A DNA stretch of 64,000 bases, from the NCBI GenBank assembly GCA_036278915.1, contig DASUKB010000002.1, forward strand, positions 30,152-94,151, given 5' to 3'. Shown here piece after piece: positions 27,696 through 29,891 of this stretch; the first letter of the stretch is position 1; each line of letters begins with the position of its first letter. The position numbers were made by a program, and so were the translations under genes. The DNA is from Patescibacteria group bacterium. GTDB taxonomy: Bacteria; Patescibacteriota; Doudnabacteria; UBA920; O2-02-FULL-48-8. The notes under the pieces were generated by a model. The model was given only the letters and a program-made list of their open reading frames with translations, ran no database searches and had not been told where the DNA came from.

Positions 27696-29891
27696 ATGAA
27701 CGAAGAAATCGCCAAGTCATACGATCAATCAAAAGAATCCGAAATTTACCAAATATGGGAGTCGTCGGGGTATTTTAACCCGGATAATTTGTCGGGTAAG
27801 CCGTATACGATAATTATGCCGCCGCCAAATGCCACGGGAACGCTGCATATCGGCCATACATTTGAACATACGATTCAAGACATAGCCATCCGCTTTGCCC
27901 GCATGCGCGGACGTAAAGCATTATGGCTGCCGGGGACAGACCATGCCGCCATCGCCACCAATACCAAAGTGGAAAAAATCCTCATCAAAGAAACCGGCCA
28001 AAACCGGCATCAAATCGGCCGCGAAAAATTTATAAAAAAGGTTGAAGAATTTGTACAAGGAAGCCGCGGCACTATCCAAAACCAGCTTCGCGTAATCGGC
28101 GATTCCGCTGACTGGTCGCGTGAAGCATTTACTATGGACGAAGAACGAACTCTGGCCGTGCGCACCGCGTTTAAAAATATGTTTGACGCCGGGCTTGTCT
28201 ATCGCGGCATTCGGGTGATTAATTGGGACCCAAAAGGCCAAACCGCCGTGTCCGATGATGAAGTTGTATATAAACCAGAGCAAGGAAAACTGTACTATTT
28301 CAAATATAGCACTGACTTCCCCATTACGATCGCGACTACCAGACCAGAAACCAAACTCGGTGATGCGGCCGTAGCCGTAAATCCGGAAGATTCCCGCTAC
28401 AAACAATTCGTAGGCAAAGAATACGAAGTGGGATTTATGGGAAATAAATTAAAGATTAGAATTGTGGCGGACGAAACAGTTGATCCCAAGTTTGGCACTG
28501 GCGCGGTGGGTGTAACTCCTGCCCATAGTATTACGGATTATGAAATTGCCCAAAGGCACAAGCTGCCGACAATTCAAATCATAAACGAGTACGGCAAAAT
28601 GATGGACAACACACAGTCTCTGGCCGGCAAAAAAACGAAGGACGCCCGCGAGGAAGTGGTGGCTTGGCTGAAAGAAAATAATCTGCTGGAGAAAATCGAA
28701 GATGTTGAATTGAATATCACCACGGCCGAACGATCCGGCGGCATTATCGAACCTTTGCCGAAACTCCAATGGTTTATCGACGTTAACAAAAAATTCCCGA
28801 TTAAGCACTCGGAGTTGAAAAATATCGAAACCGGCCAAGAGGTGACGCTCAAAGAGCTTATGCGTTCGGTGGTTTCGTCGGGCGAAATCCAAATTTTACC
28901 CGAGCGCGAAGAAAAAAAGTATTTTCACTGGATAGACAACCTCCGCGACTGGAATATCAGCCGCCAACTTTGGTACGGACACCGTATCCCTGTATGGTAC
29001 AGAAATGACGAAATATATTGCGGGTTGGAGGCCCCTGGAGGATCAAACTGGAGGCAAGACGAAGACACTCTCGACACCTGGTTTTCGTCTGCTCTTTGGA
29101 CATTTACCACCTTGGGCTGGCCGAAAAAGACTTCGGATTTGCAGACTTTCCACCCAACGCAGTTTATGTCGCCAGGATATGAAATCCTGTTTCCATGGGT
29201 TGCTCGCATGATTCTTATGAGCACTTTCCACCTCGGGCAAATTCCGTTTGAGATCGCGTACATCCACGGCATAGTGCGCAACAAAGACGGGCAAAAATTC
29301 AGCAAATCGCTGGACAACGGCATTGACCCGGTAGACATCGTGACCAAGTACGGGGCGGATGCTTTGCGCATGGCGCTCGTCGTAGGCGTAGGCACTGGCA
29401 ATGACGTCAAATACGATGAGATGAAAGTCAAAGGCTACCGCAACTTCGCCAACAAAATCTGGAACGCCGCCAGGTTTGTCTATAACAACGCCCCCCAACC
29501 CCCTCTTTACCAAAGCGGGGGTGATCGAACGCCAGTTCTATCGGGGGAGTTGTTGCCGCGTGACCAAAAAATCATTGATGAACTAAGGGAATTAGTAACG
29601 CGAATCACCGAGCAGATGGAAAAATATGATTTCGCGCACGCGTCCGAAGATTTGTATCATTATTTCTGGCATACATTCGCGGACAAAATAATTGAAGAGG
29701 CCAAACCAAAACTGGCAGATGAAACAACCAAGGCTTCGGCACAGATTATGCTTATGACAAGCCTTGAAACCCTGCTCAAGCTCCTACACCCGTTTATGCC
29801 ATTTGTGACAGAAACCATTTGGCAATTGAACCACAAAGACTTGCTAATGATCAGACAATGGCCAAACGAGGTTGTAGTTAGTAGCAAGTAG
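27696..29891 (+). CDS. valS: Valyl-tRNA synthetase (short form, 732 aa from MNEEIAK) carrying an in-frame palindromic-element insertion
   Basis: PPNATGTLHIGH, editing CP1 domain, KFSKSLDNG; the ORF-track start at 27681 is a GTG, and the ATG at 27696 has an SD. Confidence 0.93.
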   Translation: MNEEIAKSYDQSKESEIYQIWESSGYFNPDNLSGKPYTIIMPPPNATGTLHIGHTFEHTIQDIAIRFARMRGRKALWLPGTDHAAIATNTKVEKILIKETGQNRHQIGREKFIKKVEEFVQGSRGTIQNQLRVIGDSADWSREAFTMDEERTLAVRTAFKNMFDAGLVYRGIRVINWDPKGQTAVSDDEVVYKPEQGKLYYFKYSTDFPITIATTRPETKLGDAAVAVNPEDSRYKQFVGKEYEVGFMGNKLKIRIVADETVDPKFGTGAVGVTPAHSITDYEIAQRHKLPTIQIINEYGKMMDNTQSLAGKKTKDAREEVVAWLKENNLLEKIEDVELNITTAERSGGIIEPLPKLQWFIDVNKKFPIKHSELKNIETGQEVTLKELMRSVVSSGEIQILPEREEKKYFHWIDNLRDWNISRQLWYGHRIPVWYRNDEIYCGLEAPGGSNWRQDEDTLDTWFSSALWTFTTLGWPKKTSDLQTFHPTQFMSPGYEILFPWVARMILMSTFHLGQIPFEIAYIHGIVRNKDGQKFSKSLDNGIDPVDIVTKYGADALRMALVVGVGTGNDVKYDEMKVKGYRNFANKIWNAARFVYNNAPQPPLYQSGGDRTPVLSGELLPRDQKIIDELRELVTRITEQMEKYDFAHASEDLYHYFWHTFADKIIEEAKPKLADETTKASAQIMLMTSLETLLKLLHPFMPFVTETIWQLNHKDLLMIRQWPNEVVVSSK
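29491..29521 (+). repeat. Palindromic element copy inside valS: cccccaa-ccccctcttt-acc-aaagcggggg (one arm mismatch), encoding NNAPQPPLYQSGGD
   Basis: Codon-level alignment with uvrC copy 1 (AAY AAC xCC CCC CAA CCx CCY CTT ... GGG GGx) in the same reading frame. Confidence 0.75.

What the first reader, a model, noticed from the sequence alone, without database searches (positions are those of the whole stretch)
29488..29524. Same palindromic element inserted in frame into valS, giving NNAPQPPLYQSGGD
The valS segment aac aac gcc ccc caa ccc cct ctt tac caa agc ggg ggt aligns codon by codon with uvrC copy 1 (aat aac ccc tcc caa cct ccc ctt aca tta agg gga ggg). Both give N-N-x-x-Q-P-P-L-x-x-x-G-G. 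The arms ccccctcttt / aaagcggggg form a hairpin with one mismatch. ValS orthologues generally have a shorter loop between the NKxWNAxRF helix and the following segment. A mobile short palindrome landing in the same frame in two unrelated essential genes suggests frame-selective survival or a sequence-directed insertion mechanism.
Basis: partly seen in the sequence, partly recalled or inferred. Interest (0 to 1): 0.7.

Follow-up and report, generated by a model that had tools for sequence, protein, structure and literature searches.

The report
Mobile hairpin element inside valS gene
A 69-base, strongly folding palindromic repeat, one of a family spread across many bacterial phyla that flanks small DUF559 endonuclease genes, sits in frame in a surface loop of the essential valyl-tRNA synthetase gene of a CPR bacterium, much like the palindromic elements known from Rickettsia genes.

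Summary
valS (27696-29891) carries a 69-nt nested palindrome at 29484-29552: outer arms AACAACGCCCCCC / GGGGGAGTTG, an inner hairpin at 29499-29521 and a 21-nt spacer. It encodes 23 residues in a low-confidence loop between two predicted helices. The same architecture occurs as a two-hairpin copy in uvrC (6117-6246) and as a partial copy that looks like the rnj terminator (11564-11607).

A genome-collection scan found the family (TAAC-C-run-hairpin-G-run-GTTA) in many phyla. The stems co-vary (166/171 Watson-Crick), and each outer arm mirrors the stem next to it. Copies often lie inside long ORFs, more so in CPR genomes.

The "AAY AAC" is the element's own end, not a target motif. The shared reading frame follows from TAA stops in the other two frames of the consensus. 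Two orthologous ValS carry the element at the same site but are not the window's closest relatives, and four UvrC carriers never cluster, so the same loops were hit repeatedly.

The only gene that recurs beside the element is DUF559, a Vsr-like nuclease. All 6 DUF559 genes chosen without reference to hairpins are flanked by it. Mobilisation by DUF559 is inferred, not shown. Closest precedent: Rickettsia palindromic elements.

The parts
27696..29891 (+). valS (valine-tRNA ligase), host gene; the mechanical ORF starts at a GTG at 27681
   Evidence: P0001 is 100% identical, 731 aa, and named valine--tRNA ligase of a Patescibacteria MAG. Pfam tRNA-synt_1 and Anticodon_1 are precomputed for it.
29484..29552 (+). 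Complete element copy in valS: 69 nt = 23 codons, NNAPQPPLYQSGGDRTPVLSGEL (P0001 residues 597-619)
   Evidence: It is collinear codon for codon with the pristine copy at the same site in L121 (49/69 identical). It forms a nested fold at -36.9 kcal/mol, z = -5.35.
29484..29496 (+). Left outer arm AACAACGCCCCCC (canonical form AATAAC-[TG]CCCCC)
   Evidence: It pairs with the right arm. The ends AACAAC/GTTGTT, compared with canonical AATAAC/GTTATT, differ on both sides in a way that keeps the base pair.
29499..29521 (+).
   Evidence: It belongs to the CTCTTT...AAAGAG variant also seen in L072, L046 and L127 and carries one stem mismatch.
29522..29542 (+). 21-nt internal spacer
   Evidence: for the spacer coordinates and sequences: the L121 valS copy also has a 21-nt spacer, and the window's uvrC copy a 20-nt one. 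By my own position-by-position reading of those sequences, the valS spacer matches the L121 spacer at 11 of 21 positions.
29543..29552 (+). Right outer arm GGGGGAGTTG (canonical GGGGGAGTTA)
   Evidence: It obeys the mirror rule for a CCCCTC-type hairpin. The GTTG variant also occurs upstream of the DUF559 gene in L127.
5124..7088 (+). uvrC, second host gene (654 aa against about 590-600 in orthologues)
6117..6246 (+). Two-hairpin copy in uvrC: AATAACCCCTCCC - hp1 (6132-6154) - 37 nt - hp2 (6192-6214) - 20 nt - GGGGGAGTTATT
   Evidence: It is open in only 1 of 6 frames. The same architecture is seen in L019, L026, L039, L046, L053, L064 and others. The loop is 77 aa against 34-41 aa in most orthologues.
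11564..11607 (+). Partial intergenic copy: TAACTCCCCC-ta-CCCCCTCTTATCCTAAGAGGGGG followed by TTTTGTTTC, starting 4 nt after the rnj stop codon (the hairpin begins 16 nt after it)
   Evidence: It ranks second among the terminator-like sites in 1-20000. The upstream gene is RNase J by Pfam.

Best explanation
The valS segment is one copy of a family of short, non-coding, nested-palindrome repeats (MITE/REP-like). The canonical form is AATAAC-TCCCCC-n(2-6)-CCCCCTCTTA-nnn-TAAGAGGGGG-n(2-21)-GGGGGA-GTTATT, and there is a two-hairpin version.

The family is dispersed in this CPR (Patescibacteria, Doudnabacteria-like) genome and in many other phyla. In other genomes its two ends bracket small DUF559 (Vsr-like PD-(D/E)XK) endonuclease genes.

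In valS a copy entered, and partly replaced, the surface loop between the helix that contains NKIWNAARF and the next helix of the anticodon-binding domain. It survives because it lies in the only frame of the element that has no stop codons and because that loop tolerates extra disordered residues. It is presumably translated as a 23-residue Pro/Gly-rich loop. The intergenic copy doubles as an intrinsic terminator.

Shown: the anatomy, membership of the family, the insert status, the frame logic, the loop location in a predicted structure, repeated gains at the same loops, and the DUF559 association.

Inferred: that the element moves or has moved; that the DUF559 nuclease drives this (for example by a break followed by copying repair, which would fit the replacement of native codons and the absence of a target duplication); that the insert is translated; and that it is nearly neutral for ValRS.
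For: Anatomy and family. Four hairpins at three loci in 64 kb share the arms and architecture. 120 loci from many phyla show the same TAAC...GTTA-bounded structure, and conservation drops after GTTA. The stems are Watson-Crick in 166/171 hairpins across 4 stem types, and the outer arm tracks the stem type 49:0 and 0:31. The folds have z-scores of -4.3 to -5.4.

Insert status. The loop is 58 aa against 47-50 aa in 91/108 ValS orthologues. A pristine copy sits at the same site in syntenic L121, and a decayed one in L122. L123 and L124 are empty at that site.

Mobility. P0037 and P0013 are sisters (91/100 bootstraps), but the window's ValS never joins them (0/100) and its nearest relatives are empty. 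tsaD is filled in L121 but empty in its sister L122. Four UvrC carriers never cluster, 0/50.

Frame. Only one frame of the consensus element is free of stop codons.

Loop. In the AF2 model (pLDDT 86.1) residues 598-620 are coil between helices 575-597 and 621-642, and pLDDT is below 50 at 603-614.

DUF559. It is the only family that recurs next to the hairpins. All 6 DUF559 genes chosen without regard to hairpins have the hairpin plus a G-run-GTT(A/G) outer arm upstream of the start codon: within 2-24 nt in five, while in L130 the arm is degenerate and about 60 nt from the start. Five of the six have a TAAC-C-run in the 3' end of the ORF.

Generality. 12/37 hairpins in CPR loci and 15/134 in other phyla lie inside ORFs of at least 200 aa, reading N-x-x-x-PPL-x-LRGG.
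Against: No DUF559 gene, transposase or RAYT lies in the 64-kb window, and the rest of the genome could not be scanned. No target-site duplication was found, and no clean empty site from a close strain exists, because the nearest ValS is only 72% identical. So movement within this genome is inferred from comparisons between lineages.

The NJ trees are simple distance trees. A single old insertion followed by many losses is unlikely but not excluded. Translation of the insert is not shown. The link to DUF559 is an association only; the hairpins could serve those genes as expression or termination signals rather than as mobility ends.
Confidence: 0.8

Rival explanations
1. A single ancient insertion in the ancestor of this Doudnabacteria-like group, inherited by the window's lineage and by the P0037/P0013 lineage and lost precisely elsewhere. 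On this view the valS copy is a molecular fossil, not evidence of repeated or targeted insertion.
For: The site, the orientation and the 23-codon length are the same in the window and in L121. P0037 and P0013 clearly share one event. The window's copy differs from L121's at 20 of 69 positions.
Against: The window's ValS never groups with the two carriers (0/100), and its nearest relatives (P0007, P0003, P0053) have native 47-aa loops with a conserved QNxExxDPxxxL pattern. That would need six or more precise losses. L121's copy is pristine even though the proteins are only about 70% identical, so neutral sites should be saturated. The window's copy matches a distinct subfamily (CTCTTT/AAAGAG stem, GTTG end) found elsewhere. 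UvrC shows at least 4 independent gains at one loop.
Confidence: 0.12
2. The hairpin is a functional cis-element of valS, for example an RNA structure that regulates translation, mRNA stability or co-translational folding. It would be kept by selection rather than being selfish DNA that is merely tolerated.
For: The nested fold is strongly preserved (z = -5.35) although the peptide is not conserved. Both ends carry a pair-preserving double change, AACAAC/GTTGTT. Stems co-vary across the family.
Against: The same element occurs in unrelated genes, in intergenic DNA and in many phyla. Most ValS orthologues lack it. In L122 the stem has lost 6 nt, yet the gene is intact. The pair-preserving variants also exist as subfamilies elsewhere, so they may have been inherited from the source copy.
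Confidence: 0.06
3. A chance low-complexity Pro/Gly-rich loop, or an assembly artefact, that only resembles the uvrC segment.
For: The codon-register identity to uvrC copy 1 is only 26/39, in C/G-rich sequence.
Against: The three-part architecture, including the rare GGGGGAGTT arm at the right distance, is shared. There is 49/69 identity to an independent assembly at the orthologous site. The hairpin pattern is expected 0 times by chance.
Confidence: 0.02

Closest known systems
Rickettsia palindromic elements (RPE)
   Same: Both are dispersed palindromic repeats inserted in frame into many unrelated, often essential genes. The ORF is preserved and the insert is judged compatible with the protein fold (PMC10969869). 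Here the insert lies in a predicted loop and hits valS, uvrC and tsaD, with apparent in-frame copies in leucyl- and threonyl-tRNA synthetase-like and GatA-like ORFs elsewhere, judged from their sequences only.
   Different: RPEs are about 150 bp, are reported from Rickettsia, and to my knowledge have no associated gene. This family is 50-130 nt with TAAC/GTTA ends, has C-run/G-run arms that mirror the inner stem, occurs in many phyla, and brackets DUF559 genes. Sequence relatedness to RPEs was not tested.
REP/REPIN elements with RAYT transposases
   Same: Both are short, hairpin-forming repeats of 20-50 nt. There are single and paired forms, and a small gene is flanked on both sides by the repeats.
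   Different: From general knowledge of REPs, not tested here: they carry a GTAG tetranucleotide and are mobilised by a Y1 (IS200/IS605-like) RAYT. Here the ends are TAAC/GTTA, the flanked gene is a DUF559 PD-(D/E)XK nuclease, no RAYT was seen, and many copies are intragenic.
Classical prokaryotic MITEs (Correia, ERIC, Chunjie, Nezha)
   Same: Terminal inverted repeats, no coding capacity of their own, stable stem-loops, occasional in-frame intragenic copies, and terminator-like behaviour (PMC10969869).
   Different: No target-site duplication and no parent IS or transposase were found. The element is G+C-rich, whereas MITEs are typically A+T-rich.
Vsr-like (EDxHD) homing endonucleases such as I-Bth0305I
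   Same: DUF559 falls in the same PD-(D/E)XK group as Vsr and a group I intron homing endonuclease (PMC3424549; PMC3239194 and PMC2677866). It is a small free-standing nuclease gene embedded in selfish-looking DNA.
   Different: Those enzymes reside in introns or between split-intein halves. No intron or intein is present here, and no activity of these DUF559 proteins is known.
Integron attC sites
   Same: The outer ends ...AAC / GTT... pair as a stem, and genes lie between successive elements.
   Different: The recombinases next to two DUF559 units score 129-137 bits on the integron-integrase model against a cut-off of 265 and look Xer-like. There are no cassette arrays in the window, and coding-region copies are not expected for attC sites.

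Membership tests
RPE-type in-frame palindromic element (functional class) | Several dispersed copies of one palindromic repeat in the genome | tested here: met
   Three loci with four hairpins in 64 kb. The family is also present in 120 other loci.
RPE-type in-frame palindromic element (functional class) | Copies inside unrelated protein-coding genes with the reading frame preserved | tested here: met
   valS and uvrC in the window, tsaD in L121, and 27 further hairpins inside long ORFs.
RPE-type in-frame palindromic element (functional class) | The insert lies where the protein fold tolerates it (a surface loop) | tested here: met
   AF2 model: coil at 598-620 between two helices, with pLDDT below 50 at 603-614. 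The same loop carries unrelated inserts in other ValS orthologues.
Rickettsia palindromic elements proper (RPE-1 to RPE-10) | About 150 bp, from Rickettsia, and homologous in sequence to an RPE family | tested here: not met
   Size 69 and 130 nt; the host is a Patescibacteria MAG. Sequence comparison with RPEs was not run.
MITE | Terminal inverted repeats | tested here: met
   AATAAC-TCCCCC ... GGGGGA-GTTATT, 12 nt and perfect in L121. The outer stem is present in the folds.
MITE | Target-site duplication flanking the element | tested here: inconclusive
   None is visible in the filled-versus-empty comparisons of valS and tsaD, where native codons are replaced. The lineages compared are too distant for a clean test.
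MITE | A parent IS with a transposase sharing the same ends | tested here: not met
   No transposase recurs near the element in 822 kb of loci; only DUF559 does.
REP / REPIN-RAYT | A conserved GTAG tetranucleotide next to the hairpin | tested here: not met
   By my reading of the hits, the conserved ends are TAAC/GTTA. The later counts required GTTA by construction; they show conservation falling off after it.
REP / REPIN-RAYT | A RAYT (Y1 HUH transposase) gene flanked by the repeats | tested here: not met
   The flanked gene is DUF559, PF04480. Its relation to HUH enzymes was not examined.
Integron attC | Association with an IntI integron integrase and cassette arrays | tested here: not met
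   Neighbouring recombinases score 129-137 bits on TIGR02249 against a cut-off of 265. There is no integrase or array in the window.
Intrinsic (Rho-independent) terminator | A G+C-rich hairpin directly followed by a T-run, downstream of a gene | tested here: met
   Met for the copy at 11575-11607 only. Not met for the valS and uvrC copies, which have no T-run.
Homing-endonuclease-driven element (Vsr-like/EDxHD type) | A nuclease gene embedded in the element, which cuts empty target sites | not testable with these tools
   Gene adjacency was shown in other genomes. There is no DUF559 in the window, and cleavage needs biochemistry.
Intein or self-splicing intron | Splicing domains or ribozyme structure that remove the insert | tested here: not met
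   The insert is 23 aa / 69 nt, too short for an intein. No Rfam family (intron or otherwise) matched the window or ten related loci.

The most novel reading that the evidence does not exclude
The valS insert is a gene-less member of an undescribed, cross-phylum class of selfish elements. In this class a roughly 125-aa DUF559 (Vsr-like) endonuclease gene is bracketed by structured ends, each a hairpin plus a mirror-image homopurine or homopyrimidine arm. The arm's strict co-variation with the stem suggests an intramolecular triplex or a guide-type DNA recognition. The gene-less derivatives would be a major, recurrent source of in-frame loop insertions in essential proteins of CPR bacteria.
Probability: 0.4. 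Interest if true: 0.8.

Novelty: new variant of a known kind. Interest (0 to 1): 0.62.

Why it matters
In-frame palindromic elements inside essential genes are, to my knowledge, best documented in Rickettsia. This case shows the same process in CPR/Patescibacteria, whose small genomes are usually described in terms of gene loss. It also shows that the same permissive loops of ValRS and UvrC are hit again and again by several repeat families.

There are practical consequences. Such inserts inflate and distort alignments, trees and structure predictions of CPR marker proteins, and they can be recognised by a simple DNA signature.

If the DUF559 link holds, it would assign a role to a very widespread domain of unknown function. 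It would also define a new type of mobile unit whose ends show mirror-repeat (triplex-like) co-variation, which can be tested directly in vitro.

Tried and rejected
(1) GTTATG as a start codon. Most ATGs are followed by ORFs of only 1-30 codons, so GTTA is an element end. The ATG is used as a start only where a DUF559 gene follows.

(2) A known RNA family. The Rfam gathering-threshold search of the window plus 10 loci found only tRNAs.

(3) Integron attC. The neighbouring recombinases are Xer-like and score below the IntI cut-off.

(4) Transposase or RAYT partner. Clustering of 1803 ORFs from the 120 loci found no recurrent family near the hairpins apart from DUF559.

(5) Recombinational import of the 3' part of valS from a carrier lineage. 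By reading the sequences, the region downstream of the insert resembles P0007 more than P0037 or P0013. I did not compute this.

(6) Further hidden copies in the window. Peptide and arm-motif scans found only doubtful remnants at 1351 and 46137.

(7) Literature. Searches for DUF559 plus repeats, for CPR in-frame palindromes, and for the element's own sequence strings found nothing that describes this family. The library does not cover subscription journals.

(8) A close strain for a presence/absence test. None exists in the protein collection; the next ValS is 72% identical.

(9) Bare-pattern hits as evidence. My own estimate is about 140 chance matches in 596 Gb (32 bits of pattern specificity), so only the flanking architecture and the clustering of hits were used as evidence.
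Full report
1. What is at the site

valS is the ORF 27681-29891. Its likely start is the ATG at 27696, which gives the 731-aa protein P0001, 100% identical to a valine--tRNA ligase of a Patescibacteria MAG on a 206-kb contig. The quoted codons and the peptide NNAPQPPLYQSGGD are present. In codon register the segment is 29484-29522, and it matches uvrC 6117-6155 at 26 of 39 positions. The hairpin CCCCCTCTTT-ACC-AAAGCGGGGG at 29499-29521 has one mismatch, is unique in the window, and is not expected by chance.

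Twenty-one nt downstream lies GGGGGAGTTG. The word GGGGGAGTT occurs four times on the two strands of the window against 0.57 expected, and three of those four are next to this kind of hairpin. Upstream lies AACAACGCCCCCC. Together these make a 69-nt nested palindrome at 29484-29552. It folds at -36.9 kcal/mol against -20.0 +/- 3.2 for shuffles, z = -5.35.

2. Other copies in the window

uvrC (5124-7088) holds a composite copy at 6117-6246: AATAACCCCTCCC, hairpin 1 (6132-6154), 37 nt, hairpin 2 (6192-6214), 20 nt, GGGGGAGTTATT.

A partial copy, TAACTCCCCC-ta-hairpin at 11564-11598, begins 4 nt after the RNase J stop codon, with the hairpin itself 16 nt after it. It is followed by TTTTGTTTC and is the second-best terminator-like site in the first 20 kb.

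3. The family

These include Nitrospirota, Desulfuromonadales, Dehalococcoidia and many CPR lineages. I estimate about 140 chance hits for the bare pattern in 596 Gb, so the hits alone prove little. The flanks, however, are not random.

- The hits carry TAAC-C-run on the 5' side and/or G-run-GTTA on the 3' side, mostly 2-6 nt from the stem, and many loci have two hairpins between the arms, exactly as in uvrC.
- Information content falls to about 0.3 bits right after GTTA and to zero a few bases on.
- The two variable stem positions are complementary in 166 of 171 hairpins, across four stem types.
- The outer arm follows the adjacent stem in a mirror sense. CCCCTC stems have GGGGAG-TTA arms 49 times and GAGGGG-TTA never. 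CTCCCC stems have GAGGGG-TTA 31 times and GGGGAG-TTA never.

Watson-Crick pairing of a hairpin with its own flank does not predict the mirror rule. It would fit a short intramolecular triplex or a guide-type recognition, and I leave it as unexplained. No Rfam family matches the element, and no paper in the searchable library contains its sequence or describes it.

4. Is the valS copy an insert?

The stretch between NKIWNxxRF and LYHY is 47-50 aa in 91 of 108 orthologues and 58 aa here.

Two syntenic orthologues carry the same element at the same place. L121 (P0037) has a pristine copy: AAT AAC TCC CCC CGA CCC CCT CTT AAA TTA AGA GGG GGA ... GGG GAG TTA. It is collinear with the window's copy over all 23 codons, with 49/69 positions identical. 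L122 (P0013) has the same ends, a stem shortened by 6 nt, and extra internal sequence. The spacer of the L121 valS copy (ACTGCGTCAGGTAAAGC) resembles the spacer of the window's uvrC copy (TGCGTCAGGCAAGGG).

In a 64-taxon NJ tree built on 704 well-aligned columns, P0037 and P0013 are sisters (91/100). The window's ValS never joins them (0/100), and its nearest relatives P0007, P0003 and P0053 have native loops. The valS copy also has subfamily features, the CTCTTT/AAAGAG stem and the GTTG end, that occur elsewhere, for example upstream of a DUF559 gene in L127. Two gains at this site are therefore more economical than one gain followed by six or more exact losses.

Supporting cases:
- tsaD is filled in L121 and empty in its sister L122, in L123, in L124 and in the window.
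- Four UvrC orthologues with this family at the same loop never cluster (0/50), and each has empty nearest neighbours.
- Other, unrelated repeat-derived peptides occupy the same ValS and UvrC loops in further lineages.

In every filled-versus-empty comparison the element replaces 5-12 native codons, and no target duplication is visible.

5. Why the same frame, and what 'AAY AAC' is

AATAAC is the conserved left end of the element, not a target motif. In the consensus element the frames ATA-ACT and TAA-CTC each run into an obligatory TAA. Only AAT-AAC-TCC-CCC...CCC-CCT-CTT-Ann-nTA-AGA-GGG is open. The uvrC insert is open in one frame of six. Hence intragenic survivors read N-N-x-P-x-PPL-x-L-R-G-G, as seen in 27 hairpins inside long ORFs elsewhere. 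Such copies make up 12/37 hairpins in CPR loci and 15/134 in other phyla.

6. Where it sits in the protein

An AlphaFold2 model built on 53 sequences (pLDDT 86.1, pTM 0.81) has helix 575-597, coil 598-620 and helix 621-642, with pLDDT below 50 at 603-614. The element encodes residues 597-619. It is therefore a low-confidence, probably disordered loop between two helices at the start of the anticodon-binding domain.

7. What might move it

Among 1803 ORFs in the 120 loci, the only family that recurs close to the hairpins is DUF559 (PF04480). It occurs in 9 loci, mostly 0-19 nt from a hairpin, and is flanked on both sides in five.

As an independent test I took six DUF559 homologues chosen only for contig length and taxon. 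All six have a hairpin followed by a G-run-GTT(A/G) arm upstream of the start codon. The arm lies 2-24 nt from the start in five; in L130 it is degenerate and about 60 nt away. Five have a TAAC-C-run inside the 3' end of the ORF, where the stop codon is often the TAA of the next hairpin. So these genes lie between the right end of one element and the left end of the next.

DUF559 is classed with Vsr and a group I intron homing endonuclease (PMC3424549; PMC3239194 and PMC2677866). The recombinases beside two of the units are Xer-like, not integron integrases.

No DUF559 gene lies in the window. Mobilisation by DUF559 is a reasoned guess to which I give about 0.4-0.5.

8. Comparison and verdict

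The behaviour matches what is described for Rickettsia palindromic elements: in-frame copies in many unrelated genes that are compatible with the fold (PMC10969869). It fails the tests for RPEs proper, classical MITEs, REP/RAYT, attC sites, introns and inteins (see the membership table).

I rate it a new variant of a known kind. The kind is in-frame palindromic repeats. The variant is the host group (CPR), the cross-phylum family with TAAC/GTTA ends and mirror arms, and the DUF559 association.

Noticed in passing
L001-L120 (e.g. L053 2715-4210, L094 1189, L026 3642-3700): The outer arm of the element is a mirror image of the adjacent stem strand: CCCCTC stems go with GGGGAG-TTA 49:0, and CTCCCC stems with GAGGGG-TTA 31:0. 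Watson-Crick pairing does not predict this. It would fit a short purine- or pyrimidine-motif triplex, or guide-type recognition.
   Followed up: partly
L024, L030, L032, L038, L046, L053, L056, L057, L114; L125-L130: Small DUF559 (Vsr-like) endonuclease genes are bracketed by the element's right and left ends. This holds for 6 of 6 genes picked without regard to hairpins. The start codon is often the ATG of GTTATG, and the stop is often the TAA of the next hairpin.
   Followed up: yes
window 15050-15083 and 48167-48202: A second repeat family, the double hairpin TCCGCCAGAGGCGGA-TCCGCCTnnGGCGGA. One copy is intergenic with a T-tail and looks like a terminator. The other is in frame in polA on the minus strand, giving GGSASGG. 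The same peptide appears in the ValS of P0025 and P0028.
   Followed up: partly
window 6613-6641: A different G+C-rich hairpin (CCCCGCCCGAACGACCAGGTCGGGCGGG) inside uvrC encodes PPPERPGRAGLSP in a second variable loop, 40 aa here against 22-30 aa in most orthologues. Other orthologues carry other repeat-derived peptides there, and P0214 carries the PPLKIRGG family.
   Followed up: partly
L121 2570-2660 versus L122 6486-6572, L123, L124, window 25826-25909: tsaD carries a two-hairpin copy in L121 only; its sister lineage and three relatives are empty at that site. The element replaces about 10 native codons. L122 has an unrelated repeat insert at another place in tsaD.
   Followed up: yes
window 1351-1375 and 46132-46150: Possible remnants. 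TAACACCCCCCCCCTAAATTAG looks like a left arm and half a stem with no right half, downstream of uvrA. CCCCCAACTCCCCCTCC lies at the 3' end of a 129-aa membrane ORF. Either could be chance.
   Followed up: partly
L127 1376-2080; L053 3549-4300: In two unrelated genomes the DUF559 unit sits inside or beside a type I restriction-modification operon: between hsdS and hsdR in L127 (precomputed Pfam), and next to a long ORF in L053 that I take to be hsdR from its sequence only.
   Followed up: no
window 6132-6155, 6192-6215, 11576-11599 (peptide level): The open frame of the hairpin reads PPLxLRGG, which resembles the C-terminal LRLRGG of ubiquitin. It follows directly from the palindrome CTTAnnnTAAGAGGGGG, and nothing suggests it has any meaning.
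   Followed up: no
P0007, P0074, P0030, P0031, P0076 (ValS orthologues): Other ValS loops in CPR carry further repeat-like inserts, for example HELGSLSAQQAGVSE at the same site in two distant orthologues and VIPAKAGIQ in P0030. This suggests that several repeat families invade CPR housekeeping proteins.
   Followed up: no
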